DNA of 53,791 bases. Origin: Alphaproteobacteria bacterium (GTDB lineage: Bacteria; Pseudomonadota; Alphaproteobacteria; Micavibrionales; UBA1664). Of this stretch, positions 4,570 through 53,729 are shown piece by piece. The notes beneath the pieces are model-generated. The model was not told the origin of the DNA. It saw nothing but the letters and a program-made list of their open reading frames with translations, and made no database searches. Each line of letters opens with the position of its first letter. Within the stretch, counting starts at the first letter, position 1. The translations under genes and the position numbers were made by a program. The stretch spans positions 1-53,791 of the forward strand of contig JAMIFL010000159.1 in NCBI GenBank assembly GCA_035906295.1, written 5' to 3'.

Positions 4570-5568
4570 TTAAGGGTTCAGCGCCCGCACGGCAGGCCTG
4601 TTTCCGGCCTGTTTTTTCTGCACGGCTTTTTTCCGCACGGCCCATTCCACCAGTTGGCGTTCTTTCGGCATCTTTTCGCCGCGCATCAGCGCCGCGAATT
4701 TCTCATGCACGGCATGGCTGTGCCGTTCCATCATCTCCGCCCGGTAAAACCGGAATTTCTGTTCCCGGCTCAAAGGCTCGAAAAACGTCGTCCCGCCCAT
4801 GCCTTCGAAGAAACGCCGGTACGCACCCTCCGCTTCGTGCAGGTCCTGTTGCTGCTTGTGCACGTTCTCATGCACCGCGATGCTCACCGCCCATGCACTG
4901 TCGCGCAACCCGTCCGCGTCCTCGTGCACGTTGATGCCGATAATGTTCTCAAGCCCCGGCTGCGTGCCGAAAGCCCCGCTTTGCTGCGCGAAAAACCCGG
5001 CGGGGTAAATGCCTTCCGGCTCCGCCTGTTCATGCGCCTGCCGCGAAAGGCTGAAAGTCTGGATGGAATACGCAGGCTCGAACCCGAAAATCGCGGCCTG
5101 GTTGCGCACCACATGCGTCAGCACCTCGATTTTGCGTTCCACGCTTGACCGGCCCCACCCCGCCATGGCGCGCGCATATCCCGGGTCGTCCTGCAAATGC
5201 CGGTACAGCGCCAGCAGCCTTTCCTCTTCCAGCGCCTCGATATGCTCGTAATGCCGCGCCCGCAGCAGCAGCTTCACCGCAAGGTCCACCGCTATGTCCG
5301 TCTGGTCCGGGTAACGCTGCGCAAACCGCTTCAGTTCGTAAACCGCGTCGCTGCGCGCGTCTGCGGGTGCATGGTCGAATTCGCCCGCGTTCACCCGCAG
5401 CTTCATCCGCGCGGGCAAAGATGCCGATGGCGCCTCCAGTGCCTGAAGCGTGAACGTCTTCGGCCCCGATTGCACCAGCTTCCACGCTTCCCTGCAAAGC
5501 CCGCGGTCCTCCGTATACCCCTTGGGCAGCCGGATGACGACGGGTTGGTGCGGTGTGTCTGAAGTCAT
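4570..5568 (-). CDS. hypothetical protein with an HExxH motif
   Basis: 332-aa ORF of diverse composition. It contains a single HExxH (SIAVHENVHKQQQ) in the C-terminal third. No signal peptide, and I recognise no family. Confidence 0.6.
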   Translation of the reverse strand: MTSDTPHQPVVIRLPKGYTEDRGLCREAWKLVQSGPKTFTLQALEAPSASLPARMKLRVNAGEFDHAPADARSDAVYELKRFAQRYPDQTDIAVDLAVKLLLRARHYEHIEALEEERLLALYRHLQDDPGYARAMAGWGRSSVERKIEVLTHVVRNQAAIFGFEPAYSIQTFSLSRQAHEQAEPEGIYPAGFFAQQSGAFGTQPGLENIIGINVHEDADGLRDSAWAVSIAVHENVHKQQQDLHEAEGAYRRFFEGMGGTTFFEPLSREQKFRFYRAEMMERHSHAVHEKFAALMRGEKMPKERQLVEWAVRKKAVQKKQAGNRPAVRALNP

Positions 5569-5800
5569 CCGTCCTTTTAACGAACATTAGCCATAACCAC
5601 AAATTTCGAAAATGCATTTATAGGAATATAATCCCATTATTATACCTCCCGTACCCATCCATTTGAAAAACAGCTCCCCGCAAAGCCTTACGGCCTTTGG
5701 GTTTGCAGAGAACTTAAACCAAAACCAACTATTTTAGTTAACTAAATCAAATATTTAGCGCCAAAATAGTTCTTGCATAGGAAAATTTTGTAGGTAAAAG

Positions 5801-5832
5801 AAAAAGGTCGCTCTTCAGAAGCGACCTTTTTC
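5801..5832. terminator. bidirectional terminator-like hairpin inside the IS-like element
   Basis: An A-run, then AGGTCGCT (5805-5812), a 7-nt loop, AGCGACCT (5820-5827) and a T-run (5828-5832). Confidence 0.55.
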
Positions 5833-5892
5833 TAACACTAACCCGCGTGTACGCGAAGGTAGGTGGTACATGACAACATGAGCCAATTAAGG

Positions 5893-5924
5893 CCCGTCAG
5901 GCTATAAACCTGACGGGTTCTTTT
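5893..5924 (+). terminator. terminator-like hairpin inside the IS-like element
   Basis: CCCGTCAGG (5893-5901), a 7-nt loop, CCTGACGGG (5909-5917), then TTCTTTT. Confidence 0.55.
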
Positions 5925-6152
5925 ATACCAAAACAGCGATTCGTTCGTCAACCGTCTTGTACTTCGTTTTGAAGAATAATATCGTATTTTTAGCACGGCC
6001 TAATGCCGTGTTGGGGCTTCGAAACCTCTGAATCCATAGACCTCGCCTACGGCGGGGAGGCGTTAGCTATACAAGAACCTTCGGGTAAAGGCTGGCGCGA
6101 ACCTTCCTATGGAATCGGTTTTTCGAACTCCCCGCCACCAGCGGAGTTCGAT

Positions 6153-6557
6153 ATGAAATCAGCTTTATTTGCTTCCCTGATTTTTCTTAGCGCATGTGCA
6201 ATACCGCCGCACCCAACACTGGCTATCAGCAACGAAGACCGTCAAATTGCTCAGGACATTTGTGTTCAAGAAGGAAGAAAGCTCGGAACACCAGAGTTTG
6301 ATAATTGCTATCGGGAAACACTAAATCTTGTTCCCCAGCCATCAACAGGATTACAGCAATTTTCCCAATCCATGCGGGAATTAGCTGCCCAGCAACAAGC
6401 ACAACAACAGCAACAACAAATGCTAGAACTCTATGCCAACCGACCCGAAATGGCAGCTTGCATGTATCAAGGCCAATGCGGAGCGTATGCCCAGCCACAA
6501 AGAACGCATACAGAGTGCCGATACGTTTTTAAAAAGCTGGTCTGTGATAGCTATTAA
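6153..6557 (+). CDS. putative lipoprotein with a poly-Gln tract (passenger gene)
   Basis: I use the internal start of ORF 6003..6557. The ATG at 6153 is preceded by GCGGAG and gives MKSALFASLIFLSAC, with lipobox L-S-A-C. It is Cys-rich and contains AAQQQAQQQQQQ. GC is lower than in host genes. Confidence 0.5.
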   Translation: MKSALFASLIFLSACAIPPHPTLAISNEDRQIAQDICVQEGRKLGTPEFDNCYRETLNLVPQPSTGLQQFSQSMRELAAQQQAQQQQQQMLELYANRPEMAACMYQGQCGAYAQPQRTHTECRYVFKKLVCDSY

Positions 6558-6715
6558 CGGACTAGTTTTTCAATAGCGCGTTCAAATGTCTCGCCAGTTT
6601 CGTCAACTTCAACCTTACGGGCATACTCGATAAACCGTTCCTTTTGAGTAAGGCCCGGTTTTACTTTTTTCGATGATTTTTTCTTCTTAACCACGCGCCT
6701 CCGCAGTTGTTTCAT
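6554..6715 (-). CDS. small basic/acidic ORF overlapping the 3' end of the transposase gene
   Basis: Absent from the ORF track (53 aa). The ATG at 6715..6713 lies in the +1 frame relative to the transposase. It gives MKQLRRRVVKKKKSSKKVKPGLTQKERFIEYARKVEVDETGETFERAIEKLVR, with its stop at 6554-6556. The ERFIE..A......DE....FE.A..K pattern recalls small proteins I have seen on alphaproteobacterial mobile DNA. That is memory only. Confidence 0.35.
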   Translation of the reverse strand: MKQLRRRVVKKKKSSKKVKPGLTQKERFIEYARKVEVDETGETFERAIEKLVR

Positions 6716-7643
6716 AGGTCAGGCGTTTGCCCATGACACAAGCCAACAGCATTTCAGCACGCTGTACATCGTTATAGCCCAGTTTTTCGCGGTGATTGTA
6801 GCGGAAATCGTATTCAGACAGATAGCGGTGCAAGTGCTTTTCATCGCAGTGCTGATAGATGCCCTTCATGCCGCGCTTGAAAATGCTGAAGAAACCTTCC
6901 GCGCTGTTGGTATTGACAAGACCGCGGACATATTCTCCAGAGGCATGGTGGACGGTGTGGTGTTCTGCGACGTGGCCTTCAGCGCCAATGTATAGGCGGC
7001 TCTCGTCGGTATGCAAATGACTTTCACGGGCTACGTTCTCAACAACGATACGAGCAACAGTTTGCTTGTTGGCGCTCTTCACATGGAAAGACCGGGCTTT
7101 TCCGCCGCGTTCAACCAGAGACACAATGGCGCGTTTGTTTGCAGGACCGCGGTTACCAGTTTTATAGGGCAAGCCATCGAAAACACGAGTGGTACGGGGA
7201 TTAGCCACTTTTCCATGATAGGTTTCGTCCGCTTCGACGATTTTACCGTCACCGCCTAACGGACCCAGGGCGCCATCCTTCATGGCTTCGCGGATTCGGT
7301 GGGACAGGAACCAAGCGGATTTGAGAGTGATGCCCAAAGTACGGTGCAACTGGTTAGCAGACACACCTTTCTTAGATGATGAAATCAGGAAAATAGCCTG
7401 CAACCAGATATGCATTTTGATATGGCTGCTTTCAAAAATGGTGCCCACTTTCACCGTAAACGGCTTACGGCATTGATAGCACTTATGAACGCCAATGCGG
7501 GTGCTTTCGCCTTCCAGCTTGCCGATACGGTCAAATCCTCCGCAGTGAGGGCAGACTGGTCCATTCGCCCAGATGCGAGCCTCAACAAACCGATAAGCGG
7601 CCTTTTCGTTGTGGAAGTGTGCAGCTGAAAGTATGTTTTTCAT
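6687..7643 (-). CDS. IS1595 family (ISXO2-like) transposase
   Basis: 318-aa ORF. It has an N-terminal zinc ribbon (CPHCGG...KCYQCRKPFTVKVGTIFESSHI), an HTH region (LHRTLGITLKSAWFLSHRIREAM) and a DDE region beginning IVEADETYHGK. Confidence 0.9.
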   Translation of the reverse strand: MKNILSAAHFHNEKAAYRFVEARIWANGPVCPHCGGFDRIGKLEGESTRIGVHKCYQCRKPFTVKVGTIFESSHIKMHIWLQAIFLISSSKKGVSANQLHRTLGITLKSAWFLSHRIREAMKDGALGPLGGDGKIVEADETYHGKVANPRTTRVFDGLPYKTGNRGPANKRAIVSLVERGGKARSFHVKSANKQTVARIVVENVARESHLHTDESRLYIGAEGHVAEHHTVHHASGEYVRGLVNTNSAEGFFSIFKRGMKGIYQHCDEKHLHRYLSEYDFRYNHREKLGYNDVQRAEMLLACVMGKRLTYETTAEARG

Positions 7644-8146
7644 GGTTTTCTCCTATGAAACCAACCCTAAAATCCACATTGGGGTACGTCAAGTATAATA
7701 ATGGGAATATAATCATAAATCATGCTATGCTTCCCCATGCCTCACCCAACCCCCGCCATCACCCCCGCAAATTTTCTGCAAAACGAACTGAGCAGCCCGA
7801 AAAAACGCACCCTTTCAAGGCCATGGCCCCTCAAACGCCGTCTGGCGCAGGCCCGCCGCTGCCGCCTGTCGCGCCCATGGCGGCATGCCACCGGCCCCCG
7901 CACGGCAACCGGCAAATCCCGCGCCGCGCAAAACGCGTACACCACCGGCGTACACCATGCGCAAACCCGCATGGAGCGGCGCGAAATCGCCTTCTTCTTC
8001 CGCTGGCACACCCGCTTCCTGCGTGATGTCCGCGCCGCCCGCCCGCTGGCCCCGCATCACATCCGCATGCATGCCGCCTTCCGGCATTTCGTAACCGCGC
8101 TTATGGATTTGCAACCCGGCGCGAAGCCCGTAGAATCGGCGGCACC

Positions 8147-11773: not shown

Positions 11774-11850
11774 GCACCCGTAGCTCAGCTGGATAGAGCG
11801 CCGGTTTCCGAAACCGTAGGTCGCAGGTTCGAGTCCTGCCGGGTGCGCCA
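11774..11850 (+). tRNA. tRNA-Arg (anticodon CCG)
   Basis: 77 nt. Acceptor GCACCCG/CGGGTGC, D arm GCTC-AGCTGGATA-GAGC, anticodon loop TTCCGAA (CCG), T arm GCAGG-TTCGAGT-CCTGC, encoded CCA. Confidence 0.95.
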
Positions 11851-11867: not shown

Positions 11868-12554
11868 ATGATGGTCGATTTCTTCACTCCCGAAGCCTCC
11901 CGCAATTATGACCGCAAGAACAGCGGCCTTGCGCCGATTACGGACAACCTGCATTTCCTCATCCGCCTCGTCCTGAAGGATTTGCCTGCGCAGGCGCGCG
12001 TGTTGTGCGTCGGCGTCGGCACCGGCGCGGAGATACTGTCGCTGGCGGCGCATTACCCGGGCTGGACGTTCGTGGGGGGCGACCCGTCCGCGGCCATGCT
12101 GGACGTGTGCCGCGAACGCCTTGCTGCGGCGGGCGTCGCCGAACGCTGCACGCTGGTGCATGGCTATGTGCATGACGTGCTTGCCGCGGCGGATTTCGAC
12201 GCCTGCCTGAACATTCTTGTCGCGCACTTCATCAACCGTGACGACCGCCTCGGTTTCTTCCGCAACATGACGGCGCACCTGAAACCCGGCGGCATGCTGG
12301 TCAACGCTGAAATCAGCTACGACCTGAGCGCGCCCGAATTCCCCGCGATGCTGGAAAACTGGAAACAGGTGCAGGCCCTGATGGGCGCGACGCCCGAAAG
12401 CCTCACGGCGCTGCCCGCGCTGCTGCGCGAGAAACTGACCGTGCTGCCGCAGGGCGAGACCGAAAACCTGATGCGCGCGGGCGGAATTCCGCTGCCCGTG
12501 CGCTTTTTCCAGGCATTCATGGTGACCGGCTGGTATGGCCGCAAGGCCCCATAG
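11868..12554 (+). CDS. class I SAM-dependent methyltransferase
   Basis: 228-aa ORF with SAM-binding motif I VLCVGVGTGAEIL and the downstream acidic and aromatic motifs of the Rossmann methyltransferase fold. Confidence 0.85.
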   Translation: MMVDFFTPEASRNYDRKNSGLAPITDNLHFLIRLVLKDLPAQARVLCVGVGTGAEILSLAAHYPGWTFVGGDPSAAMLDVCRERLAAAGVAERCTLVHGYVHDVLAAADFDACLNILVAHFINRDDRLGFFRNMTAHLKPGGMLVNAEISYDLSAPEFPAMLENWKQVQALMGATPESLTALPALLREKLTVLPQGETENLMRAGGIPLPVRFFQAFMVTGWYGRKAP

Positions 12555-12616: not shown

Positions 12617-13519
12617 ATGACCACCATGCAGAATACCGCTGTGCAGAACAACGCTGTCGCGGGCATCAACGACGTGCGCACGGGCGATATTATCGAATGC
12701 GACATGCCGTCGCTGTTCGACGGGCAGATCAAGATGATCAACCGCGTGTGCCTTGTCGTCGGCGTCGAGGCCGGGCGCAAGACCGAGGACATTCACGGGC
12801 TGGTGCTGGCGCGTTTCGCGTTTCCGCAAGACCGGCTGACGGAAGACCGCGGCCTCGTCATTCGCCGCAACCAGACGCGGGAATCCGTGATGCTGGGTTT
12901 GACGGCGGACGCGGTGTTGCGTAACAACCGCGTCGACCTCATTCCCGCCGATCCGTATTATCTTGGCACCCGCATCAGGCGCGTCGGTTATGTGCGCGAC
13001 CCGCAACTGATGACGGACTTCGCGGCGTCGCTGATGACCGGCCTGCGCAAGGGAACGCAGGGACCGCGCGGCCGCCTGTCCAACACCAATATCCGCCAGT
13101 CGGCGAAACTGAAGGGCGGCACGGTGTTTCCGGACTTCCCCCTGCGCGCCGTTCTGGAGATGGCAGGCACCAAGCCCCTGATGGTGGACGACGATTACGC
13201 CCGCGCGGAAGTGCAGCGTGAATTGCAGCGCCGCGCCGAATGCGCCTGCGCCTTCAGGGCCGCGGCGGAAGCGTTGCCGACATGCCAGCAGCAGCCCGCC
13301 GGTTCCCCTGCCGAAAAACTGCCGGACCGTTACGTGACCCGCGCCGAAATCCAGCACCAGAACCGCAGGATGGGGACCCGCCAGGTCGACCAGCTTGTCA
13401 CCCGCATCAACGCGGGCGTGCGCCAGCGCCAGATGGAAGGGCAGGGCGTCGCGGGTCAAGGCACGGCGAGACAAGCCATGTCAGGGCAAGTGATGGCCGC
13501 ACAACTTGTGGTGACTTGA
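12617..13519 (+). CDS. hypothetical protein (orphan)
   Basis: 300-aa ORF of diverse composition. The competing 385-aa minus-strand ORF is Arg/Ala/Gly-rich. TTGACA lies at 12556-12561 upstream. I recognise no family with confidence. Confidence 0.55.
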   Translation: MTTMQNTAVQNNAVAGINDVRTGDIIECDMPSLFDGQIKMINRVCLVVGVEAGRKTEDIHGLVLARFAFPQDRLTEDRGLVIRRNQTRESVMLGLTADAVLRNNRVDLIPADPYYLGTRIRRVGYVRDPQLMTDFAASLMTGLRKGTQGPRGRLSNTNIRQSAKLKGGTVFPDFPLRAVLEMAGTKPLMVDDDYARAEVQRELQRRAECACAFRAAAEALPTCQQQPAGSPAEKLPDRYVTRAEIQHQNRRMGTRQVDQLVTRINAGVRQRQMEGQGVAGQGTARQAMSGQVMAAQLVVT

Positions 13520-13551: not shown

Positions 13552-14592
13552 ATGCCTATACTCATCCTCACGATTCTTCTGGCCTGTGCCGCAGCCTACG
13601 CGCTGGGCGTGGGTAAAACCTACTACACCGGGCCCGCCAGCGACCATTTCGACGGCAGGCAGTTCTTCAACCCCGGCATCAACGTCGATAAAACGCGCGC
13701 CGATCTGATAAAATGGCGCAAGACCGCGCAGCGCGCCGTCTGGCCGCTGGACGTTCCGTACGAGCCGCAGGAAAAACCGCCCGCGCGGGTGGACGGCGCC
13801 GACATGCGCGTGACCTTCGTGGGCCACGCCACCTTCCTGATACAGGCCAACGGCCTGAATATTCTGACCGACCCGTTCCTGTCGGACCGGGCGAGCCCGT
13901 TGCCATTCATGGGGCCGAAACGCGTGCGCCCGCCCGCCGTGGCGTTCGACGACCTGCCGAAAATCGACATCGTGCTGGTGTCGCACAACCATTACGACCA
14001 CCTCGACCGCGCCGCGCTCAAACGCCTGCACAAGCGCGACAACCCGGTTATCGTGACGCCTTTGGGCAATGATAAAATCATCGACCTGCCCAACACCCGC
14101 ATGCTGGACTGGGGGCAGGCGACCGAACCCATGGGCGCGCATATCACGCTGGAGCAGGCCTATCACTGGTCGGCCCGCGGCCTGTGGGACAGGCGCAAGG
14201 CGCTGTGGGGCGCGTTCGTGGTGAAACTGCCGGCGGGCAGCGTTTACTTCGGCGGCGATACCGCCTTCATCGACGGAAAGATCTTCGGCGAGGCGCGCGA
14301 CAAACACGGGCCCTTCCGGCTGGCGCTGCTGCCGGTGGGTGCGTATGAGCCGCGCTGGTTCATGCAGACCGCGCATATGAACCCGGAAGACGCCGTGAAG
14401 GCATGGACCCTGCTGGGCAAGCCGTTCACCCTTGGCATGCATTTCGGCACCGTGCAGTTGACCGACGAACCCATCGACGCGCCGGGCCATGCACTGGCGG
14501 AGGCGCTGAAAATGGAAGGCGCGCCGGAAGCGGGGTTCCGCATGCCGGAATTCGGGAAGGGTCTGAACGTAAAAGGCCTGAACGTAAATTAA
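13552..14592 (+). CDS. MBL-fold metallo-hydrolase (NAPE-PLD-like)
   Basis: I use the internal start (MPILILTILLACAAAYA, ATG at 13552) of ORF 13240..14592. Motifs: VTFVGHATFLIQ, and HxHxDH as VSHNHYDHLD. Confidence 0.85.
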   Translation: MPILILTILLACAAAYALGVGKTYYTGPASDHFDGRQFFNPGINVDKTRADLIKWRKTAQRAVWPLDVPYEPQEKPPARVDGADMRVTFVGHATFLIQANGLNILTDPFLSDRASPLPFMGPKRVRPPAVAFDDLPKIDIVLVSHNHYDHLDRAALKRLHKRDNPVIVTPLGNDKIIDLPNTRMLDWGQATEPMGAHITLEQAYHWSARGLWDRRKALWGAFVVKLPAGSVYFGGDTAFIDGKIFGEARDKHGPFRLALLPVGAYEPRWFMQTAHMNPEDAVKAWTLLGKPFTLGMHFGTVQLTDEPIDAPGHALAEALKMEGAPEAGFRMPEFGKGLNVKGLNVN

Positions 14593-15299
14593 GAAGCGGC
14601 CTTGGTCCCGGCCTTGTGGACGAGGCTGAGATGCGTGAACACCTTGTCGCCGAACCCCGCGGGACCGGCGGCGGGCAGGTGTTTTTCCATGATGGCGAAG
14701 GGCAGGGTGATGGAGCCGGGGTACACGTCGGCGGCGACACCGGCGCGGAACATCAGCGTGAACACGGCCATTTCCTCAAGCAGGTAGGCGCGGGAGTGAC
14801 GCTGGAAATTCGGCAGTTTGAAATCTTCCGTGAAGCCAAGGCGCTTGCAGCGCCGCTCCCAGAAATCGGCGACGCAGGCGTTGATGGCGGTATGCATGTC
14901 CGGCTGCGTGTCGTACAGCGCGCAGATGTCACGGTGCAGCGGCGCATAGTCTGCTGAACTGCGCCATTCTTCCCAGCGCGAGATGCGGTAATGCGGCAAC
15001 GTATCCAGAATGGCCTTGTGCCGGGCGATCCACTGGTCGCCATGGCCGTGCGTGAGGCTTGTGGCCATCGCATCGGGCAGGCCTTTTTCGAAGCACAGGT
15101 TGTGCCGTTGCAGCGTATCGTTGACGCAGATGGTGACGTGTTCGAACCGCGCCGCCATCCAGGCGACCATGGCCGCGAGCTTGGCCCCCTCGTGGTTGGC
15201 GCCGCCGACCGACACCTGCAGGCGTGCGTGGCTGTACTGGCTGAACCCGGCCGCTTTTTTAACGCTGACGACGTAAGGCGTTTCAGTTGAATCGGACAT
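14589..15299 (-). CDS. tRNA-dependent cyclodipeptide synthase (CDPS)-like protein
   Basis: I use the internal start (MSDSTETPYV, ATG at 15299) of ORF 14589..15407. The product is 236 aa. HARLQVSVGGANHEGAKLAAMVAWMAARFEHVTICVNDT aligns by eye with AlbC EHALIGISAGNSYFS...LLQWAGQRFERTDVVYVDT. Ser30, Tyr172-x3-Glu176 (YLLEE) and Tyr193-Pro194 reproduce the AlbC S37, Y178/E182 and Y202 spacing (142, 4 and 17 residues here; 141, 4 and 20 in AlbC). They also match the XYP-subfamily signature. Confidence 0.55.
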   Translation of the reverse strand: MSDSTETPYVVSVKKAAGFSQYSHARLQVSVGGANHEGAKLAAMVAWMAARFEHVTICVNDTLQRHNLCFEKGLPDAMATSLTHGHGDQWIARHKAILDTLPHYRISRWEEWRSSADYAPLHRDICALYDTQPDMHTAINACVADFWERRCKRLGFTEDFKLPNFQRHSRAYLLEEMAVFTLMFRAGVAADVYPGSITLPFAIMEKHLPAAGPAGFGDKVFTHLSLVHKAGTKAAS

Positions 15300-15933
15300 C
15301 GGACGTGCTTTTTGTCGGCTGCTGGAGCACGCTCCACAGCATGTTGAACGTATTGCGCTGGATATTGGCGTTGACCGGGTCGACCTTGACCGCGAACTGG
15401 AAGGCATTGCCCGCCTCCGTCACCACGTGGTCGCCGTATATGAGGGTGACGCGGTTGATGAAGAACGCCTTGGGGACGTAGCGGTATTCGTCAAGCGGCG
15501 CCATAAGGTGCGTGTTGCCTTCCTGCACGAGCTGGCGCATGCCGATTCCGGCGGCGCGCAGGCGCATATAGGCGGCGTTCACCGCTTCCGGCGAAACGGA
15601 ATCGTCGGAATACATGATGAGCAGTTCGGGGTGCTTGCGCCCCGCGAGGTGGCGTTCGACGTCGTCCAGCACCTGCAGGTAGGCCTCTTCCTGCGTGTCG
15701 CCTTCAAGGAAGTAAAGCGGGTTCGGTTCGTATTCGATGCCGCGTTCCGTGAACAGGACCCCGCGTTTTTCGAACGCCTTGACGATTTTTTTCTGGGTCC
15801 GGGCGGTGGGATGGCTTTCCCCGCGTTCAACCTTCTGCATACCCTGAAGCGACAAATCGGCCTGTTCCGCCAATTGGTCTTGCGTCAAGTTGAGAAAAGC
15901 CCGTGCGGCCCGTATCTGTCCTGAAAAATCCAT
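15283..15933 (-). CDS. XRE-family helix-turn-helix transcriptional regulator with a ~150-aa C-terminal domain
   Basis: 216-aa ORF. The N-terminal HTH_3 pattern is IRAARAFLNLTQDQLAEQADLSLQGMQKVERGESHPTARTQKKI. Its last 17 nt overlap the start of the CDPS-like gene. Confidence 0.85.
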   Translation of the reverse strand: MDFSGQIRAARAFLNLTQDQLAEQADLSLQGMQKVERGESHPTARTQKKIVKAFEKRGVLFTERGIEYEPNPLYFLEGDTQEEAYLQVLDDVERHLAGRKHPELLIMYSDDSVSPEAVNAAYMRLRAAGIGMRQLVQEGNTHLMAPLDEYRYVPKAFFINRVTLIYGDHVVTEAGNAFQFAVKVDPVNANIQRNTFNMLWSVLQQPTKSTSDVRFN

Positions 15934-15935
15934 TA

Positions 15936-15958
15936 AGAGTAGTTATAGTGACTACTCT
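15936..15958. promoter_or_regulatory. perfect 8-bp inverted repeat (candidate operator) in the divergent AT-rich intergenic region
   Basis: AGAGTAGT (15936-15943), a 7-nt spacer, ACTACTCT (15951-15958). It starts 3 nt upstream of the XRE gene ATG (15933). The intergenic region 15934-16042 is visibly AT-rich. Confidence 0.45.
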
Positions 15959-16042
15959 AATAACCGCAACAATTATTTTTAATGCTTTTTTAACCAAAAT
16001 CCCCTATAAAGTCTGCGAAGGTTAGAGAACAGGGATGTGAGA

Positions 16043-16402
16043 ATGTACGTAAAGATCGAAACCGGCCCGCAAGCCGCCACCGCCATTCGCCAGGTATTCG
16101 TCGCCAACCAGAACGTCGCCCTGGTCGTTCCGGCAACGGAAGCGCCGCAATGGTATGATGTGAAATTCCTGGCCGAACGCATGGTCGACCTGCGCGGCAT
16201 GGTGCGCAACGCCATCGCCAACCGCCGCCGCGCCGAACAGCTCAAGCAACGTTACGCCGGTCATTCCGCGCGCCATATCGTGACCGCCGAAATTCACGGC
16301 CACTCCATGGACATCGCGCTGGCCTGGCACGATTACCGTCAGGCCACCGCCGCCTACCACGCCTCATGGGCGGTTTATCAGAACAACCTGCGCCGCTATT
16401 AA
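16043..16402 (+). CDS. hypothetical protein
   Basis: ORF 16037..16402 opens with GTG. I prefer the ATG at 16043, with GGGA 7 nt upstream. 119 aa, His/Ala/Arg-rich C-terminal half. I recognise no family. Confidence 0.5.
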   Translation: MYVKIETGPQAATAIRQVFVANQNVALVVPATEAPQWYDVKFLAERMVDLRGMVRNAIANRRRAEQLKQRYAGHSARHIVTAEIHGHSMDIALAWHDYRQATAAYHASWAVYQNNLRRY

Positions 16403-16407
16403 GCGTT

Positions 16408-17202
16408 ATGACCGTTGATGCAGAACGGGCATGGGCAGAACGGGCATGGATTGAGCAGGTGCTGCATCATGCCGCGGATTTTGTCATCGACCTGAATGAA
16501 CGAAACCTGCGGGAACGTCGTCTGAACGATCCCTACAGCCGTTTCTGGCAAACCATGCCCGCCTGTCCCGGCACAGAAGACCGGGACGATTCCACCACCA
16601 CCAGCTACGCCTTTCGCAAACACGCGACCGATCAGGACTGGCAACGCCTGCTGCAAAATCAGGCGGCTGCGGCACAGGCGATGGACGCGGATATCCTGGC
16701 CATCGATGGTGAGAGCATAGAGGGCCTGCGTGCCGTGGCTGTGGCGCGCAGAATAAGAAAACCGGAAAGAAGGCCGTGGTTTCCCGACGGCCTGTTCGAC
16801 CGTGTTAAAGATAGGCCCGCATTCTTCGCGCAGAACCCGAAACTCCACGGCATCGTCAATTTCATGCCGTTGGCGCGTGCGCATGCGCAATCCTGCGAAT
16901 GGAAAAACTGGCAGGATTTTTGCCATTCTTTCGCGGGCCATCTGGAACAGCACAATGTCGATATGACGCACGGCATCGTGGGGCGTTTGCTGGGAGGCGG
17001 CATCACGCTGGGCCCGCGCCCCGATACTACGCACCTGATTGAAGCCAGGCCCTTGCCGGTGGATGACATCAAACCGGCATCGCGCCTGAACGAGGTTTAT
17101 GCCGAGGCCACCGAGCGCCCGAAACGCGGCGACCGCCGTGTTACCGGCGGTCGCGCTAAGAAGGGGCCGCAAAAACCGGCCCTGTGGAAGCCCAAGGTTT
17201 AG
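16408..17202 (+). CDS. hypothetical protein
   Basis: I use the internal start (MTVDAERAW, ATG at 16408, 5 nt after the previous stop) of ORF 16366..17202. 264 aa with a basic C-terminal tail (KRGDRRVTGGRAKKGPQKPALWKPKV). I recognise no family. Confidence 0.55.
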   Translation: MTVDAERAWAERAWIEQVLHHAADFVIDLNERNLRERRLNDPYSRFWQTMPACPGTEDRDDSTTTSYAFRKHATDQDWQRLLQNQAAAAQAMDADILAIDGESIEGLRAVAVARRIRKPERRPWFPDGLFDRVKDRPAFFAQNPKLHGIVNFMPLARAHAQSCEWKNWQDFCHSFAGHLEQHNVDMTHGIVGRLLGGGITLGPRPDTTHLIEARPLPVDDIKPASRLNEVYAEATERPKRGDRRVTGGRAKKGPQKPALWKPKV

Positions 17203-19884: not shown

Positions 19885-20985
19885 TTACACGCGCGGCAGT
19901 TCAGGGACGCTGTCGTCCGCCTGCTTGCGGTCGGTGTGGCTCCACTCCATCACCAGCGCGTAGGCGACGGCCAGCAGCGTGGGGCCGATGAACAGCCCGA
20001 TGAACCCGAACGCGATAAGCCCGCCGAACACGCCGAGAATGACCAGCGGCAAAGGCAGGTTGGAACCGAGCGAGATGAAGTACGGGCGGATGATGTTGTC
20101 CACCCCGCTGATGATGAGCAGGCCCCAGATGCCCATGAAGATGCCCGCGCCCGTCATGCCTTCCGACAGAAGCCAGATGGTGGCCGGAACCCAGATGACC
20201 GGCGGCCCCATGGGAATGAACGACATAAGCAGCGTGATGAGGCCGAGGAACGTGGCCCCCGGCACGCCCGCAAGCCAGAAGCCGATGCCCGCCAGCGCCC
20301 CCTGCGCCAGCGCGGTGCCGAGCACGCCGTAAACCACGCCGATGACCGTTTTCTTGGAGACCGCCAGCAAATGCTGCCCGCGCGGACCCACGAACTTGGT
20401 GATAAGGGTGCTGACCCGGTGCGCCACCGCGATGCCGTGGCGGAAGAAGAAGAACGCGATGAGCACGCCGAGCGACAAATCGAGCATGCCCTGCCCGATG
20501 GCCTTGCCCGTGGCGATGAGCTTGGGCGCCAGATGCGCCTTGAGCGCGGCGCCCTCCTGCAGCGGCTGGGCGACATAGTCGTTCCAGATGCCGTCGAGGT
20601 AAGGGCCGATCAAAGGCAGCTCGTGCAGCCATGCCGGCATTTCGCCGGGACCGTTGATGATGGGTTCGAGCACGACGGAATAAAGCCGCCCGAAATTATC
20701 CGCGAGGCTGGAGCCGAGGAACGTCAGCGGCACGAGAAAACACACCGCCAGCAGCAGCGTCATCAGAAGCGCCGCCAGCGTACGGCGGCCGTTCAGCCGG
20801 TCCTTGATCCATGTAAACGCGGGCCATGTCGACAGCGTGAAGATGATGGCCAGCAGGAACGCCGGGATGAACGGTTGCAGGATGACGAGACAGCCCCACA
20901 AAATCAGCGCGACGCCCACCACCGTAATCAGGGTACGGTAGACGGTCTCACGGTTGAGGCTTTCAATATCGAAACGGACGGCCAT
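19885..20985 (-). CDS. AI-2E family transporter (PerM/UPF0118-like permease)
   Basis: 366-aa polytopic membrane ORF. The C-terminal region [23 protein letters not shown] is typical of the family. Confidence 0.88.
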
Positions 20986-21026
20986 GCCCCCATCATAGGG
21001 GCTGGACTATTGGGCGTAAAGCGCAA

Positions 21027-21093
21027 CCGCGCCGTCAGGCGCAAAAGCAAGCCACGCCGTCAGGCGTAAAACCGAACCACGCCGTCAGGCGTA
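21027..21093. repeat. three tandem copies (period 25 bp) of a hairpin-containing unit
   Basis: ccgcgccgtcaggcgca lies at 21027-21043. ccacgccgtcaggcgta lies at 21052-21068 and again, identical, at 21077-21093. Each unit has the core palindrome CGCC-GTCA-GGCG. The third copy encodes the last codons and the stop of ORF 21085..21768. Confidence 0.85.
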
Positions 21094-22642: not shown

Positions 22643-23488
22643 ATGGCCATGAACCACATCATACGCACAGGGCTTGCGTGTATCATGGCCCTGTGCGCGG
22701 CGGCCTGCACGCAACTGGGCTTCGCCGCCGCCAACGCGCCGGGGCTGCGTGACGTGGCAGCGGCTAACGATGTCATGTTCGACAAGGCGCACGCTTTGGC
22801 GCTCGATGTCTATGCCCCCAAAAGCCATGCGGATGCCTTGCCCGTGATTGTCTTCATCCATGGCGGCCGCTGGCAGTCGGGCGATAAGGGCGATTACGCC
22901 TTCGCGGGCGCGGCACTGGCCCGGCAGGGCTTCGTCGTCGTTATTCCCGACTACCGCAAATACCCCGACGTGAAATTCCCGGCCTTCGTCGACGACGCGG
23001 CCCGCGCAGTTGAATGGGCGCACGAAAACATCGCGCCCTACGGCGGTGACCCTGCGCGCCTTTTCGTGGCCGGTCACTCATCCGGCGCGCATGTGGGCGC
23101 GTTGCTGGCCGCCGATGAACGGTATGTACCGCGCGGTATCATCAAGGGGTTCGCCGGTCTGGCGGGTCCCTATGCCTTTACCCCCGACGAACCGGATTTG
23201 CAGGACATGTTCGGCCCGCCGCAAAACTACCCGGCCATGCAGGTCACCCGTTTCATTGACGGTCGGGAACCGCCGATGCTGCTGCTCTACGGCACCGCCG
23301 ATAAAGCCGTGGCACCCTACAACCTCGAACGCCTCGTAACCGCCGTTCACGCCAAGGGCGGGCAGGTCGAAACCATCCTCTACCCCGATGTCACCCACAC
23401 CGGCATCATCGCGGGATTAAGCTGGTTCAGGCGCGGCAACCCGCCCGTGGCGCAGGATATGGCCCGGTTCTTCAAAGCGGTGAAATAA
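22643..23488 (+). CDS. alpha/beta hydrolase (esterase, fold-3 type), probably exported
   Basis: 281-aa ORF. It has an N-terminal signal or lipoprotein-like sequence (IMALCAAAC), an oxyanion region FIHGGRWQSGDK and the nucleophile elbow GHSSGAH. Confidence 0.85.
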   Translation: MAMNHIIRTGLACIMALCAAACTQLGFAAANAPGLRDVAAANDVMFDKAHALALDVYAPKSHADALPVIVFIHGGRWQSGDKGDYAFAGAALARQGFVVVIPDYRKYPDVKFPAFVDDAARAVEWAHENIAPYGGDPARLFVAGHSSGAHVGALLAADERYVPRGIIKGFAGLAGPYAFTPDEPDLQDMFGPPQNYPAMQVTRFIDGREPPMLLLYGTADKAVAPYNLERLVTAVHAKGGQVETILYPDVTHTGIIAGLSWFRRGNPPVAQDMARFFKAVK

Positions 23489-23494
23489 AGAGGA

Positions 23495-23523
23495 AAATGG
23501 TGCCGTTGAAAGGATTTGAACCT
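23495..23523 (-). pseudogene. orphan tRNA-Thr 3'-end fragment (duplicate of 23627-23655)
   Basis: aaatggtgccgttgaaaggatttgaacct is identical over 29 nt to the CCA, acceptor and T-arm end of the intact tRNA-Thr plus 3 flanking nt. It then diverges. No D or anticodon arm is present. Confidence 0.85.
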
Positions 23524-23629
23524 CGTTGCGCTTGGCGCAATAAACACCTCGTCGCGCTTGGCGCGACAAACATATACGTTTGAAGGTCCAAAACCTTTCA
23601 ACGCGATGCATTGGAAATGAAGAGAGAAA

Positions 23630-23704
23630 TGGTGCCGTTGAAAGGATTTGAACCTTCGACCCTCGCATTACGAATGCGATGCTCTACCCCTGAGCTACAA
23701 CGGC
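23630..23704 (-). tRNA. tRNA-Thr (anticodon CGU)
   Basis: The reverse complement is GCCGTTG-TA-GCTC-AGGGGTA-GAGC-A-TCGCA-TTCGTAA-TGCGA-GGGTC-GAAGG-TTCAAAT-CCTTT-CAACGGC-A-CCA. 75 nt, anticodon CGT. Confidence 0.93.
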
Positions 23705-48979: not shown

Positions 48980-49197
48980 GCGTAGGCGACAAGGCGGCGG
49001 TCGTCCTTGCCGAGCTTGCTGTGATGAACCCCGTCAGCCGTGTTGGGCATCAGGTAAACGCCGTGATCGCCGACCAGCCATAAGCCTTTGCCCGTGTCCT
49101 CACCGTAAAGGGGCTGGGCGGCTTTGGCAGTGTCGACTTCCTCAATCAGCTTTTCGATTTCGTTCCAAGGAAAATGCAGTTTCATTATTGCCTCCAC
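48967..49197 (-). CDS. DUF3085-like protein, probably C-terminally truncated or fused at the element junction
   Basis: 76-aa ORF. GLWLVGDHGVYLMPNTADG......RRLVAYA matches my memory of DUF3085 proteins from ICEs and plasmids (LVHDQGVYLMSNG....VAYAKGCDP). The last three codons and the stop (RKC*) are read from hxlR-derived sequence in another frame. Confidence 0.5.
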   Translation of the reverse strand: MEAIMKLHFPWNEIEKLIEEVDTAKAAQPLYGEDTGKGLWLVGDHGVYLMPNTADGVHHSKLGKDDRRLVAYARKC

Positions 49198-49203
49198 GCG
49201 TTG

Positions 49204-49719
49204 TTAATAACAATCGAACCAGCGCTGGCAGGTGGCCAGCAGATGGTTGTAATCTCCCTCGGTTGCCTCGTTGAGAAAGGCTGTGACCTCTCGCTCCGAA
49301 AGACCAGCGCAATATGCCGCGCGTTTGCAAAGACCAAGGATATTAAAAGCGTTGCCGTCCTTGCCTGTCAGGCCAACACGGACTTCGGGGAATTTCACAG
49401 TCGATGGGTCAGCTACCCGCCGCCCGATATAGCGAGCGTAACGATAACCTGAAGGATCGACATACAGCGTCTCTCGTCCCGGCGAGGTGACGGCAATGGC
49501 AAGGCGTGTGGTTTTATTTTTCCAACCGCCTTTGTCATCCAGCCAATCACGATAGGCCAGCGGTCTGGCAACAAAGTCATCATATTCGGCGGCGGTCATT
49601 TCGCGTGTTTCAATGATTTCGGTGTCATAGGCCGTACCGCTGCCGTAACGGCTACCGGATTCAATTTCGTGCCAATCGCCGGGCTTACGGGCGTAAATAA
49701 CGCGGATCATGTCGCTCAT
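49204..49719 (-). CDS. hypothetical protein (mobile-element gene)
   Basis: I use the internal start (MSDMIRVIYARKPG, ATG at 49719), preceded by AGGAGA. 171 aa. The C-terminal GNAFNILGLCKRAAYCAGLSEREVTAFLNEATEGDYNHLLATCQRWF resembles a small domain common in phage and plasmid proteins. That is memory only. Confidence 0.6.
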   Translation of the reverse strand: MSDMIRVIYARKPGDWHEIESGSRYGSGTAYDTEIIETREMTAAEYDDFVARPLAYRDWLDDKGGWKNKTTRLAIAVTSPGRETLYVDPSGYRYARYIGRRVADPSTVKFPEVRVGLTGKDGNAFNILGLCKRAAYCAGLSEREVTAFLNEATEGDYNHLLATCQRWFDCY

Positions 49720-49727
49720 GGTTTCTC

Positions 49728-50039: not shown

Positions 50040-50049
50040 CGTTCCTTCC

Positions 50050-50568: not shown

Positions 50569-50685
50569 GGTTTTCTCCTTTGCTTATACATCCATGAACG
50601 CTTCATTCGCGGCACTTATCAAGTGAATACGGCTGTGAAATGATTGCAAAGTTTGGAGAAAGACGATCATTTGATTATCCAGCAT

Positions 50686-51084: not shown

Positions 51085-51177
51085 GCGGCTGTCCTTTTTT
51101 GGTTGACGGGGTGGGTACGGTGCTGGCCGCCGCCATGTCAGGCGGCGCCAGCATTACTCCGTAGGAGTAAGGGGATG

Positions 51178-51353: not shown

Positions 51354-51360
51354 CGGCGCA

Positions 51361-53496: not shown

Positions 53497-53500
53497 CGCG

Positions 53501-53716: not shown

Positions 53717-53729
53717 ACCTTTTCCTTTC

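What the first reader, a model, noticed from the sequence alone, without database searches (positions are those of the whole stretch)
14589..15933. Cyclodipeptide-synthase-like gene overlapping an XRE-family regulator gene, with no tailoring enzyme in its own two-gene unit
Seen in sequence:
- The 236-aa ORF (14589-15299) aligns by eye with the N-terminal Rossmann region of AlbC: HARLQVSVGG...AMVAWMAARFEHVTICVNDT against HALIGISAGN...LLQWAGQRFERTDVVYVDT.
- It has Ser30, Tyr172, Glu176 (YLLEE) and Tyr193-Pro194.
- The spacings are 142, 4 and 17 residues, compared with 141, 4 and 20 for AlbC S37, Y178, E182 and Y202.
- Its ATG lies inside the last 17 nt of the upstream XRE-type HTH gene (15283-15933), so the two are almost certainly co-transcribed.

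Established knowledge: these four residues are the catalytic and signature positions of tRNA-dependent cyclodipeptide synthases. Tyr-Pro marks the XYP subfamily. CDPS genes are best known from Actinobacteria and Firmicutes, usually beside oxidases, P450s or methyltransferases.

Inference: this is a candidate CDPS in a proteobacterial housekeeping neighbourhood, paired with a dedicated regulator rather than a tailoring enzyme. The product and its role (signal or antibiotic) are unknown. The nearby SAM methyltransferase (11868-12554) and MBL hydrolase (13552-14592) are on the other strand and are not obviously linked.
Basis: partly seen in the sequence, partly recalled or inferred. Interest (0 to 1): 0.7.

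Follow-up and report, generated by a model that had tools for sequence, protein, structure and literature searches.

The report
Mobile cyclodipeptide synthase cassette with own regulator
The gene is a real tRNA-dependent cyclodipeptide synthase from an uncharacterised branch, and in about 70 unrelated genomes it sits overlapped behind the same unusual regulator, so the pair looks like a self-contained mobile module that makes, and perhaps senses, one small cyclic dipeptide.

Summary
ORF 14589-15299(-) is a cyclodipeptide synthase (CDPS) of the XYP subfamily. It scores 61 bits against NCBIfam TIGR04539 (cut-off 45). It matches solved CDPS structures at E=4.5e-19 by sequence. Its AF2 model (pLDDT 89) superposes on XYP CDPSs at TM 0.8. 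Ser30, Tyr172, Glu176 and Tyr193-Pro194 are present; the Ser, Glu and Tyr193 equivalents are nearly universal in 65 relatives.

New here:
- **Conserved pairing.** In 70 of 72 distinct homologous loci, the same 215-aa regulator gene lies directly upstream. The CDPS start overlaps it in 44 of 47 loci, mostly by 14 nt. No tailoring enzyme or transporter is conserved.
- **The regulator.** It has a restriction-controller-like XRE HTH and a C-terminal phospholipase-D-like (TrmB-like) domain that lacks the catalytic His and is in no Pfam model.
- **The promoter.** It is conserved, looks leaderless, and carries a unique palindrome.
- **A third gene.** A small divergent gene (16037-16402) accompanies the pair in about half the loci.
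- **Mobility.** The cassette also occurs inside a Mu-like prophage and beside relaxase genes.
- **Prior test.** The only tested clade member (CDPS 35 of Micavibrio) gave no product in E. coli.

Best reading: an autoregulated, mobile producer of one untailored cyclodipeptide, possibly a signal sensed by its own regulator. The product and its role are unknown.

The parts
14589..15299 (-). XYP-type cyclodipeptide synthase gene (236 aa). Catalytic Ser30, Tyr172, Glu176, Tyr193-Pro194. Putative P1 pocket R26/Q28/C58/N60/W109/V179/F180/D191. Putative P2 pocket C142/D145/F146/R149/G195/I197/T198.
   Evidence: TIGR04539, 61.1 bits against a cut-off of 45; AF2 pLDDT 89.4; TM 0.81 to 5OCD and 5MLQ.
15283..15933 (-). 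Regulator gene (216 aa). Residues 1-68 form an XRE/controller-protein-like HTH. Residues about 70-216 form a PLD/TrmB-like domain with a degenerate HKD motif (V153-x-K155-x4-N160-x6-G167).
   Evidence: HTH_3. (C.Kpn2I 4YBA, E=4.7e-12). (AF2 pLDDT 93.4). (TrmB 3QPH, TrmBL2, Nuc 1BYR, Zucchini, NucT). (no Pfam model covers the C-terminal domain). (234 representative clusters, nearly all of them 205-225 aa).
15283..15299 (-). 17-nt overlap of the regulator's 3' end with the CDPS start, implying translational coupling.
   Evidence: Overlap is conserved in 44 of 47 loci, with a modal length of 14 nt.
15936..15958 (.). Perfect palindrome AGAGTAGT-n7-ACTACTCT, the putative operator. It covers the -10 box and the transcription start of the regulator/CDPS operon.
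   Evidence: It is unique in the window, with 0 matches expected in 100 shuffles. An imperfect version sits at the same place in related loci.
15942..15969 (-). Putative promoter: -35 TTGCGG (15969-15964), 16-nt spacer, -10 TATAAC (15947-15942). The -10 box ends 8 nt before the ATG at 15933, which implies a leaderless or nearly leaderless mRNA.
   Evidence: Read from the sequence. The -10 box and its distance to the ATG are conserved in 6 of 7 aligned loci whose proteins are only 57-67% identical. The consensus scan did not call it because the last base of the -10 box is C.
15972..15993 (-). Conserved A/T-rich direct repeat TTAAAAAAGCATTAAAAATAAT upstream of the -35 box. It may be a second binding site or an UP-like element.
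   Evidence: Alignment of upstream regions.
16037..16402 (+). Small divergent gene (121 aa; an alternative ATG is at 16043) for a protein with no family hit. It is a frequent third member of the cassette.
   Evidence: A 40%-identical homologue sits at the same position in L054. An iterative HMM finds the family in 32 loci, that is 27 of 56 distinct loci with at least 700 nt of upstream sequence, always divergent and 65-260 nt from the regulator gene. No Pfam, NCBIfam or PADLOC hit.

Best explanation
This is a self-contained, horizontally mobile cassette with two conserved core genes, plus a small divergent gene in about half of the loci.

**Shown.**
- The downstream gene encodes an XYP-type tRNA-dependent cyclodipeptide synthase with every catalytic and tRNA-A76-contacting residue intact.
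- It is almost always preceded, with an overlap, by one particular 215-aa protein: an XRE/controller-like HTH joined to a catalytically dead PLD/TrmB-like domain.
- No tailoring enzyme or exporter travels with the pair.

**Inferred mechanism.**
1. The regulator binds the palindrome that covers its own -10 box and start site, and so autoregulates a leaderless bicistronic mRNA. Regulator and synthase are then made together in a fixed ratio. This is the same logic as controller (C) proteins of restriction-modification operons.
2. The synthase takes two aminoacyl-tRNAs through a Ser30 acyl-enzyme intermediate and releases an untailored cyclodipeptide. The first residue is fixed by a clade-specific polar P1 pocket (R-Q-x-N/S-W-x-F-D). 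The second residue differs between loci because P2 is variable.
3. The PLD/TrmB-like domain is the sensor. The most economical ligand is the cassette's own cyclodipeptide, which would make the pair a signal-synthase/receptor (feedback or autoinduction) module that chromosomes, conjugative elements and a Mu-like prophage can carry. This is the least certain step.
For: **CDPS identity.**
- Sequence and family matches.
- Structure.
- Residues S30, Q64, N67, F146, Y172, E176, Y193 and P194 match Nbra-CDPS residues shown to contact A76 or the alanyl group (PMC13062777).

**Cassette.**
- The regulator is upstream in 70 of 72 distinct CDPS loci.
- A CDPS is adjacent in 66 of 74 regulator loci with enough downstream sequence. 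Six of the eight without an adjacent CDPS call are deliberately sampled paralogues; the other two are the orphan L077 and L072, whose CDPS is adjacent but missed the distance threshold.
- The overlap is conserved.
- Clustering of neighbours finds no other gene in more than 6 loci.

**Regulation.**
- The HTH is closest to C.Kpn2I.
- The palindrome is unique in the window.
- Promoter and operator are conserved in loci whose proteins are only about 60% identical.

**Sensor domain.**
- The fold matches the TrmB effector domain and PLD nucleases.
- The catalytic His is absent (sequence).
- 42 C-domain positions are at least 90% conserved among CDPS-linked regulators. Only 17 and 12 of them persist in two paralogue groups that precede other genes, and the polar positions are subgroup-specific.

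**Mobility.** The cassette sits in a Mu-like head-gene module and next to relaxase, NikA, resolvase, ParE and a reverse transcriptase.

**Pockets.** P1 is conserved and P2 is variable in 65 unique homologues.
Against: - The only tested clade member, CDPS 35 (34% identity), produced no detectable cyclodipeptide in E. coli. Activity is therefore unproven. The authors suggest unsuitable E. coli tRNAs or wrong start codons for inactive XYP enzymes. CDPS 35 also lacks about 16 residues present here.
- 12 of the 65 homologues have Phe at the Tyr172 position.
- No evidence bears directly on what the C-terminal domain binds. It could be a protein-protein or dimerisation surface.
- Paralogous regulators precede unrelated genes, so the family may be generic controllers rather than product sensors.
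- The cassette was not found in IMG/VR, INPHARED phages or PLSDB plasmids, so its link to mobile elements rests on a few metagenomic contigs.
- The consensus promoter scan did not call the proposed promoter.
Confidence: 0.55

Rival explanations
1. Toxin-antitoxin or abortive-infection-like module. The CDPS-like enzyme is a growth-arresting effector that drains or diverts aminoacyl-tRNAs. The HTH protein is its antitoxin and repressor, and the PLD-like domain senses a trigger such as phage infection.
For: - Two overlapping genes with the DNA-binding protein first, behind an autoregulatory-looking operator.
- Patchy distribution in unrelated contexts, including a prophage moron position and beside ParE, resolvase and relaxase genes.
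- No biosynthetic partners.
- The HTH gives weak hits to HipB/Y4mF-type antitoxins.
- An orphan regulator without a CDPS exists (L077).
Against: - The regulator is more conserved than the enzyme in 62 of 64 loci. This is the opposite of the usual antitoxin/toxin pattern (my general knowledge).
- PADLOC has no model that matches the CDPS.
- Around a hundred CDPSs have been overexpressed in E. coli for product screening without toxicity being raised as a problem in the paper read (PMC5816076).
- CDPS turnover releases deacylated tRNA that can be recharged (inference).
- Two loci carry tandem CDPS paralogues behind one regulator (L036, L072). That fits product diversification better than toxin dosage.
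Confidence: 0.15
2. The protein has the CDPS fold but does not make a free cyclodipeptide. It might transfer an aminoacyl or dipeptidyl group to another acceptor, or act only in complex with the regulator or the small divergent protein.
For: - CDPS 35 gave no product in E. coli.
- The P1 pocket is unusually polar and charged (R26, Q28, N60, D191) compared with the characterised XYP motifs listed in PMC5816076.
- Fixed-ratio co-translation with the regulator would suit a complex.
- One paralogous regulator precedes a different aa-tRNA-dependent transferase domain (LPG_synthase_C, 36.6 bits).
Against: - The Ser, Glu and Tyr193 equivalents are kept in nearly all 65 unique sequences, and the Tyr172 equivalent in about 80%.
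- The cyclisation Tyr and the A76-contacting residues are intact.
- A single negative heterologous test on a shortened, 34%-identical relative is weak evidence.
- Other paralogous regulators precede genes with no aa-tRNA link.
Confidence: 0.12
3. The regulator is only a timing or homeostasis controller in the manner of restriction-modification C proteins, with no small-molecule ligand. The PLD-like domain serves oligomerisation, and the cyclodipeptide acts outward as an antibiotic, an allelochemical or a factor in predation.
For: - The closest HTH relative is a C protein, and PADLOC 'Control_protein' scores E=7e-8.
- The gene order, the overlap with the controlled gene and the leaderless-type promoter mirror C/R operons (the leaderless nature of pvuIICR mRNA is from my memory).
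- Paralogous regulators precede varied cargo genes at one fixed chromosomal site.
- Many hosts are Micavibrio-like predatory bacteria.
Against: - Classical C proteins are single-domain proteins of about 80-100 aa (lengths). Here a 145-aa domain is added.
- That domain has many conserved polar residues specific to the CDPS-linked subgroup.
- Its nearest structural relative in a regulator is the TrmB effector-binding domain.
Confidence: 0.18

Closest known systems
XYP-subfamily cyclodipeptide synthases with solved structures: Fdum-CDPS (5OCD, listed as a cGG enzyme), Nbra-CDPS (5MLQ/9I5M, makes cAE), BcmA (9J61), Rgry-CDPS (5MLP)
   Same: Same fold (TM 0.75-0.81). Same Ser/Tyr/Glu/Tyr-Pro residues. 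The DTLQRxN motif is shared, and its Gln and Asn contact the aminoacyl group and A76 in Nbra-CDPS.
   Different: Only 22-28% identical. The P1 pocket is polar (RQCNWVFD, against VLAAWIIV in Nbra and LPLDWVME in Fdum). In particular, the Leu32 that closes P1 in Nbra is Gln28 here. The product is unknown. The genomic partner is a regulator, not an oxidase, P450 or methyltransferase.
CDPS 35 (MICA_581, WP_014102141) of Micavibrio aeruginosavorus ARL-13, and Mesorhizobium australicum WP_085463145, listed as unclassified XYP CDPSs in Gondry et al. 2018
   Same: Same clade: 34% identity at E=7e-28, and the same P1 signature R-x-x-x-W-V-F-D. A Micavibrio aeruginosavorus MAG chromosome carries a regulator-CDPS pair of this clade (L040).
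   Different: CDPS 35 is shorter by about 16 residues in the alpha6-alpha7 region and has Asp at the Gln28 position. It was scored inactive in E. coli. The papers I read mention neither the regulator nor the cassette.
Controller (C) proteins of restriction-modification systems, e.g. C.Kpn2I (4YBA) and C.Esp1396I
   Same: The HTH domain is 34% identical to C.Kpn2I over 68 residues. The gene lies upstream of, and overlaps, the gene it presumably controls. A palindromic site sits at its own promoter.
   Different: There are no restriction or modification genes. There is an extra 145-aa PLD-like domain. The controlled gene is a biosynthetic enzyme.
TrmB-family regulators (TrmB 3QPH/2F5T, TrmBL2 5BPD)
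   Same: A DNA-binding domain followed by a PLD-like fold without catalytic residues. In TrmB, this region is the sugar-binding effector domain.
   Different: The DNA-binding domain here is XRE-type, not the winged helix of TrmB. Sequence similarity is undetectable. The structural match is moderate (TM about 0.4 over the whole query, up to 0.64 against Nuc).
Signal-synthase/receptor gene pairs carried on mobile elements (LuxI/LuxR-type such as TraI/TraR, and phage arbitrium AimP/AimR)
   Same: A small-molecule synthase and a ligand-domain transcription factor are encoded together, move together, and occur on a prophage and a conjugative-type element.
   Different: There is no homology to any of these systems. 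Signalling by the product is purely inferred. No export or import component is present.

Membership tests
tRNA-dependent cyclodipeptide synthase (CDPS; TIGR04539 / PF16715) | Significant match to the family profile | tested here: met
   NCBIfam TIGR04539 gives 61.1 bits against a cut-off of 45. Pfam PF16715 gives 25.6 bits, just under its cut-off of 27, at E=1.2e-5. Solved CDPSs match at E=4.5e-19.
tRNA-dependent cyclodipeptide synthase (CDPS; TIGR04539 / PF16715) | Rossmann-type fold of CDPSs, related to class Ic aminoacyl-tRNA synthetases | tested here: met
   The AF2 model has pLDDT 89.4. The top 44 Foldseek hits are all CDPS structures, followed by TyrRS at TM about 0.48.
tRNA-dependent cyclodipeptide synthase (CDPS; TIGR04539 / PF16715) | Catalytic Ser37, Tyr178, Glu182 and Tyr202 (AlbC numbering) | tested here: met
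   These are Ser30, Tyr172, Glu176 and Tyr193, mapped on Nbra S34/Y172/E176/Y194. They are invariant in 24 homologues. In the wider set of 65, 12 have Phe at the Tyr172 position.
tRNA-dependent cyclodipeptide synthase (CDPS; TIGR04539 / PF16715) | Formation of a cyclodipeptide from two aminoacyl-tRNAs | not testable with these tools
   The only experimental datum for the clade is negative: CDPS 35 was inactive in E. coli (PMC5816076 supplementary data set 4).
XYP subfamily of CDPSs | Tyr-Pro at AlbC positions 202-203 (rather than Tyr-His), and no Asn at position 40 | tested here: met
   Tyr193-Pro194 are present. Position 33 (AlbC 40) is Gly here and Gln in most of the family.
XYP subfamily of CDPSs | Structurally closer to XYP than to NYH enzymes | tested here: met
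   TM 0.75-0.81 to 5OCD, 5MLQ, 9J61 and 5MLP, against 0.54-0.63 to Rv2275, AlbC and YvmC.
XYP subfamily of CDPSs | Basic beta2/beta7 strands that bind the tRNA acceptor stem | tested here: inconclusive
   The family consensus has VKVK in the N-terminal strand and FTRIDFxR in the C-terminal strand. The window protein has VSVKK and FTHLSLVHK, which are less basic. No electrostatics were computed.
XRE-family HTH transcription regulators | Cro/C1-type HTH domain | tested here: met
   Pfam HTH_3 gives 30 bits against a cut-off of 23. The AF2 model has a 4-helix N-terminal domain. C.Kpn2I matches at E=4.7e-12.
XRE-family HTH transcription regulators | Sequence-specific binding to an operator | not testable with these tools
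   The candidate operator is the palindrome at 15936-15958, unique in the window, with an imperfect counterpart in related loci.
Restriction-modification controller (C) proteins | Part of a restriction-modification gene system | tested here: not met
   No endonuclease or methyltransferase is conserved next to it in 81 loci. The methyltransferase at 11868-12554 is not conserved with the cassette.
Phospholipase D (HKD) superfamily enzymes | HxK(x)4D catalytic motif | tested here: not met
   The fold matches Nuc, Zucchini and NucT, but the motif reads V153-P-K155-x4-N160. The His position is Ile or Val throughout the family.
TrmB-like regulators (PLD-like effector domain) | DNA-binding domain plus a non-catalytic PLD-like ligand-binding domain | tested here: inconclusive
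   The best Foldseek hits are TrmB 3QPH (E=4.4e-5), TrmBL2 and 2F5T. TM is only about 0.4, there is no sequence similarity, and the type of DNA-binding domain differs. Ligand binding is untested.
Type II toxin-antitoxin systems | Toxic protein neutralised by the co-encoded DNA-binding partner | not testable with these tools
   The architecture is compatible. However, the regulator is more conserved than the enzyme in 62 of 64 loci.
Known anti-phage defence systems (PADLOC-DB 2.0) | Match of the effector to a defence-system model | tested here: not met
   No PADLOC hit for the CDPS, the 121-aa ORF (16037-16402) or the 278-aa ORF (16366-17202). Only generic HTH hits were found for the regulator.

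The most novel reading that the evidence does not exclude
The cassette is a new type of cell-cell, or element-to-element, communication module. A CDPS makes a plain cyclodipeptide, and the co-translated XRE/PLD-like protein is its cytoplasmic receptor, switching its own leaderless promoter. The module spreads between Micavibrio-like predators, other Alphaproteobacteria, conjugative elements and a Mu-like phage, with the variable P2 pocket creating different 'dialects'. It would be the first genetically defined synthase/receptor pair for diketopiperazine signalling.
Probability: 0.2. Interest if true: 0.85.

Novelty: new variant of a known kind. Interest (0 to 1): 0.6.

Why it matters
Cyclodipeptides have long been proposed as bacterial signals. 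However, no dedicated synthase/receptor gene pair for them appears in the papers found here. CDPS genes are usually read as the first step of tailored antibiotic pathways.

This CDPS clade has four properties that point elsewhere:
- It never travels with tailoring genes.
- It almost always travels, with an overlap, with one regulator whose second domain looks like a ligand sensor.
- It moves between genomes and mobile elements.
- Its only tested member was written off as inactive.

The cassette therefore gives a concrete, testable candidate for the biological role of untailored diketopiperazines. It may also explain the earlier negative result, for example through a missing partner or unsuitable tRNAs.

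It defines a previously unmodelled regulator family: XRE joined to a degenerate PLD domain, about 234 clusters at 50% identity, with no Pfam model. Cultured carriers exist for experiments: Aestuariibius sp. 2305UL40-4 and Roseobacter sp. HKCCA0434.

Tried and rejected
- **Genomic island at tRNA-Arg (11774-11850).** No direct repeat of the tRNA end was found. GC3 of the cassette genes (0.76-0.81) is close to that of their neighbours (about 0.82). There is therefore no sign of recent insertion.
- **The two ORFs next to the CDPS in L001/L002 (125 aa and 255 aa).** I tested whether they match the 121-aa ORF (16037-16402) and the 278-aa ORF (16366-17202) of the window. They do not.
- **The 278-aa ORF 16366-17202, the 300-aa ORF 12617-13519, MBL, methyltransferase and GST as cassette members.** None is conserved in any related locus.
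- **A general link between the regulator family and aa-tRNA-using enzymes.** This was suggested by the LPG_synthase_C partner in L049. Other paralogues precede unrelated proteins, so the idea was dropped as a rule.
- **Phage and plasmid collections.** IMG/VR, INPHARED and PLSDB gave no hit.
- **Pfam scan of 32 regulators at E<=10.** No PLD or TrmB model was detected, so the fold assignment rests on structure prediction alone.
- **Literature searches** for CDPS with XRE, Micavibrio, prophage, defence, TA or quorum-sensing receptor found nothing on this cassette. The library lacks most subscription journals, including Jacques et al. 2015 itself.
- **Consensus promoter scan.** It did not call the proposed promoter. 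The promoter rests on cross-locus conservation.
- **Product prediction.** I did not commit to one. No characterised CDPS shares the pocket motifs.

Full report
**1. The observation**

14589-15299(-) encodes 236 aa and 15283-15933(-) encodes 216 aa. The ATG of the downstream gene lies 17 nt inside the upstream gene. A longer reading frame from 15407 exists, but all homologues are 236-257 aa and align from the 15299 start.

**2. The downstream gene is a cyclodipeptide synthase of the XYP type**

- Pfam CDPS scores just under its gathering threshold (25.6 against 27 bits, E=1.2e-5).
- NCBIfam TIGR04539 passes clearly (61.1 bits, cut-off 45).
- A plain sequence search of the PDB gives E=4.5e-19 to the Fluoribacter dumoffii CDPS (5OCD). 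It gives about 4e-18 to the Nocardia brasiliensis CDPS (5MLQ/9I5M), and also finds BcmA (9J61), Cglo-CDPS and Rgry-CDPS.
- An AlphaFold2 model built on 24 homologues has mean pLDDT 89.4. It superposes on those XYP enzymes at TM 0.75-0.81. NYH-type enzymes (Rv2275, AlbC, YvmC) reach only 0.54-0.63 and TyrRS about 0.48.
- Ser30, Tyr172, Glu176, Tyr193 and Pro194 map onto Nbra-CDPS S34, Y172, E176, Y194 and P195. Residues that contact the terminal adenosine or the alanyl moiety in recent Nbra-CDPS complexes are also conserved: Q69, N72 and F149 there, Q64, N67 and F146 here (PMC13062777).
- The one notable change is that Leu32, which closes the P1 pocket of Nbra-CDPS, is Gln28 here.

**3. The clade is known but uncharacterised**

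Gondry et al. 2018 state that 65% of XYP CDPSs are proteobacterial. The phylum is therefore not surprising.

Their supplementary data set 4 lists two unclassified entries with the pocket signature of this clade. One is 'CDPS 35, inactive' from Micavibrio aeruginosavorus ARL-13 (P1 RDSAWVFD, P2 AQYRGIL). The other is a Mesorhizobium australicum protein (RQVSWVFD / AALRGWL).

CDPS 35 is 34% identical to the window protein (E=7e-28). It lacks about 16 residues of the alpha6-alpha7 region.

By the same AlbC-based positions, the window protein has P1 = RQCNWVFD and P2 = CDFRGIT. Across 65 unique homologues, P1 is nearly fixed as R-Q-(C/I)-(N/S)-W-(V/A/I)-F-D, while P2 varies widely.

The P1 pocket is far more polar than in any characterised XYP group I could read. 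I do not predict the product.

**4. The gene pair is a conserved cassette**

- A scan of one genome per species found 46 loci. They are mostly Micavibrio-like and other alphaproteobacterial MAGs. They also include cultured Aestuariibius, Roseobacter and Marichromatium strains.
- A scan of metagenomes that started from the regulator found 28 more loci.
- After de-duplication there are 81 distinct loci. 70 of 72 CDPS loci have the regulator immediately upstream on the same strand.
- 66 of 74 regulator loci with enough downstream sequence have the CDPS adjacent. Of the eight others, six are paralogues I sampled on purpose, one (L077) is an orphan regulator, and one (L072) does have an adjacent CDPS that missed my distance threshold.
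- The CDPS start overlaps the regulator's end in 44 of 47 loci, most often by exactly 14 nt.
- Clustering all neighbours within 7 kb shows no other gene shared by more than six loci: no oxidase, P450, methyltransferase or transporter.
- The methyltransferase and the MBL hydrolase of the window are not conserved with the cassette.

**5. The regulator has two domains**

- *N-terminal domain.* Residues 1-68 form an XRE-type HTH. Its best relatives are restriction-modification controller proteins (C.Kpn2I 4YBA, E=4.7e-12; PADLOC 'Control_protein').
- *C-terminal domain.* Residues about 70-216 match nothing in Pfam, even at E<=10 for 32 members, and nothing in the PDB by sequence.
- *Predicted fold.* The AF2 model is confident (pLDDT 93.4). 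Its C-terminal domain resembles the PLD fold of TrmB and TrmBL2 and of the nucleases Nuc, NucT and Zucchini (Foldseek E=4e-5 to 4e-4).
- *Degenerate motif.* The HKD motif survives only as V153-x-K155-x4-N160-x6-G167, with the catalytic His missing throughout the family. The domain is therefore a binding module, not an enzyme.
- *Family size.* A search of 1.84 billion representatives finds 234 clusters. Nearly all are 205-225 aa with the domain at the same position, so the architecture is fixed and the family small.
- *Conservation.* The regulator is more conserved than the enzyme in 62 of 64 loci.

**6. Regulatory region**

A perfect palindrome, AGAGTAGT-n7-ACTACTCT (15936-15958), sits immediately upstream of the regulator's ATG. 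It is unique in the window and has no match in 100 shuffles.

The palindrome covers a TATAAC -10 box that ends 8 nt before the ATG. A TTGCGG -35 box lies 16 nt further upstream.

I aligned seven loci whose proteins are only 57-67% identical. Six of them share the -10 box, its distance to the ATG, the flanking TAGT/ACTA half-sites and an upstream TTAAAAATAAT repeat.

I infer a leaderless, autoregulated mRNA. The generic promoter scan did not call it because of the C at the last -10 position.

**7. A third gene**

The 121-aa ORF 16037-16402, divergent from the regulator, has a 40%-identical counterpart at the same place in the closest locus. An iterative HMM restricted to upstream opposite-strand ORFs converges on 32 loci. 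That is 27 of 56 distinct loci with enough upstream sequence.

The proteins are small and very divergent, and match no family. Their role is unknown. The following ORF (16366-17202) is not conserved.

**8. Mobility and paralogues**

The cassette lies between Mu F/portal and protease/major-head genes of a Mu-like prophage. It also lies beside relaxase/NikA, resolvase, ParE, a reverse transcriptase and ParB. Elsewhere its chromosomal neighbourhoods are unrelated. It is absent from IMG/VR, INPHARED and PLSDB.

In the window, its composition matches the host.

More distant regulators of the same architecture (521 hits) sit at a fixed dnaA-rpsT-fpg locus. They are followed by different genes in different genomes: an LPG_synthase_C-like protein, unknown proteins of 388-394 aa, and a methyltransferase-like protein.

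Of 42 C-domain positions that are at least 90% conserved in CDPS-linked regulators, only 17 and 12 are kept in these two paralogue groups. The polar positions (S114, Q134, N140, K155, N160, D185, N194) are subgroup-specific. This fits a ligand or interface specific to the CDPS pairing.

**9. Interpretation**

Shown:
- a bona fide XYP-type CDPS with an intact active site;
- an obligate, overlapping partnership with an XRE/PLD-like regulator;
- no tailoring genes;
- a conserved promoter and operator;
- scattered, partly mobile-element, locations.

Inferred:
- autoregulation from the palindrome;
- a leaderless mRNA;
- production of an untailored cyclodipeptide;
- most speculatively, sensing of that product by the PLD-like domain.

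Rivals are a toxin-antitoxin/defence module, a CDPS-fold enzyme with another activity, and a ligand-free controller. They are weighed in the structured fields. The inactivity of CDPS 35 in E. coli is the main caution.

**10. Novelty**

The enzyme family and subfamily are known, and the clade was listed in 2015-2018. The cassette itself is not described in anything I could search. That covers the regulator architecture, the conserved overlap, the operator, the third gene and the mobility. I rate it a new variant of a known kind.

Noticed in passing
window 23482-23523 and 23614-23655 (tRNA-Thr(CGT) at 23630-23704, - strand): A 42-nt, 93%-identical partial copy of the tRNA-Thr end and its flank lies 132 nt away. 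It may be a remnant attachment site of an integrative element.
   Followed up: no
window 21013-21091: Three tandem 25-nt units (GGCGTAAA..AACC.CGCCGTCAGGCG) sit just upstream of the start (20985, - strand) of the 366-aa membrane-protein ORF 19885-20985, which I took for an AI-2E-type permease without running a family search.
   Followed up: no
window 5000-8000, with an ORF at 6687-7643 (-): A low-GC stretch (49-53% against 61% overall) contains an IS1595-family transposase and two ORFs without any Pfam hit (4570-5568, 6003-6557).
   Followed up: partly
window 49000-53791, with an ORF at 51361-53496 (-): A low-GC (53%) end of the window holds a 711-aa AAA_25-domain protein and two ORFs without hits. 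It may be part of an integrated element.
   Followed up: partly
window 12617-13519 (+): A 300-aa ORF has no Pfam, NCBIfam or PADLOC hit, but its GC3 of 0.81 is typical of real genes in this window. It lies between the methyltransferase and the MBL hydrolase and is not conserved with the cassette.
   Followed up: partly
window 14589-14592: The MBL hydrolase gene (+) and the CDPS gene (-) converge and share 4 nt. Their two stop codons lie within one palindromic TTAA, which leaves no room for a terminator.
   Followed up: no
window 11774-11850 (+): tRNA-Arg(CCG) lies directly upstream of the methyltransferase gene. I looked for a direct repeat of its 3' end downstream, which would mark an island, and found none.
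   Followed up: yes
L052 3519-5312 and L053 (metagenomic contigs): The whole three-gene cassette (small protein, regulator, CDPS) is inserted on the opposite strand between Mu F/portal/terminase and protease/gpT head genes of a Mu-like prophage. This is a typical moron position.
   Followed up: partly
L049/L050, L082-L088: Paralogous XRE/PLD-like regulators sit at a fixed dnaA-rpsT-x-fpg-x locus of Micavibrio-like genomes. They are followed by different genes in different genomes: an LPG_synthase_C-like protein of 357 aa, unknown proteins of 388-394 aa, and a methyltransferase-like protein of 332 aa. This is a variable-cargo site under one regulator family.
   Followed up: partly
L021 9344-10699 (Marichromatium gracile DSM 203): A clade member occurs without the regulator in a high-GC gammaproteobacterium. 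A 164-aa ORF that looks like a GNAT acetyltransferase (by eye from its sequence; no family search run) and a transposase-like ORF precede it. It looks like a separate horizontal acquisition.
   Followed up: partly
L036 1577-2941; L072 6687-7965; L003, L025, L050: Some loci carry two CDPS paralogues in tandem behind one regulator. Others carry a second, 24-29%-identical copy of the regulator next to the cassette.
   Followed up: no
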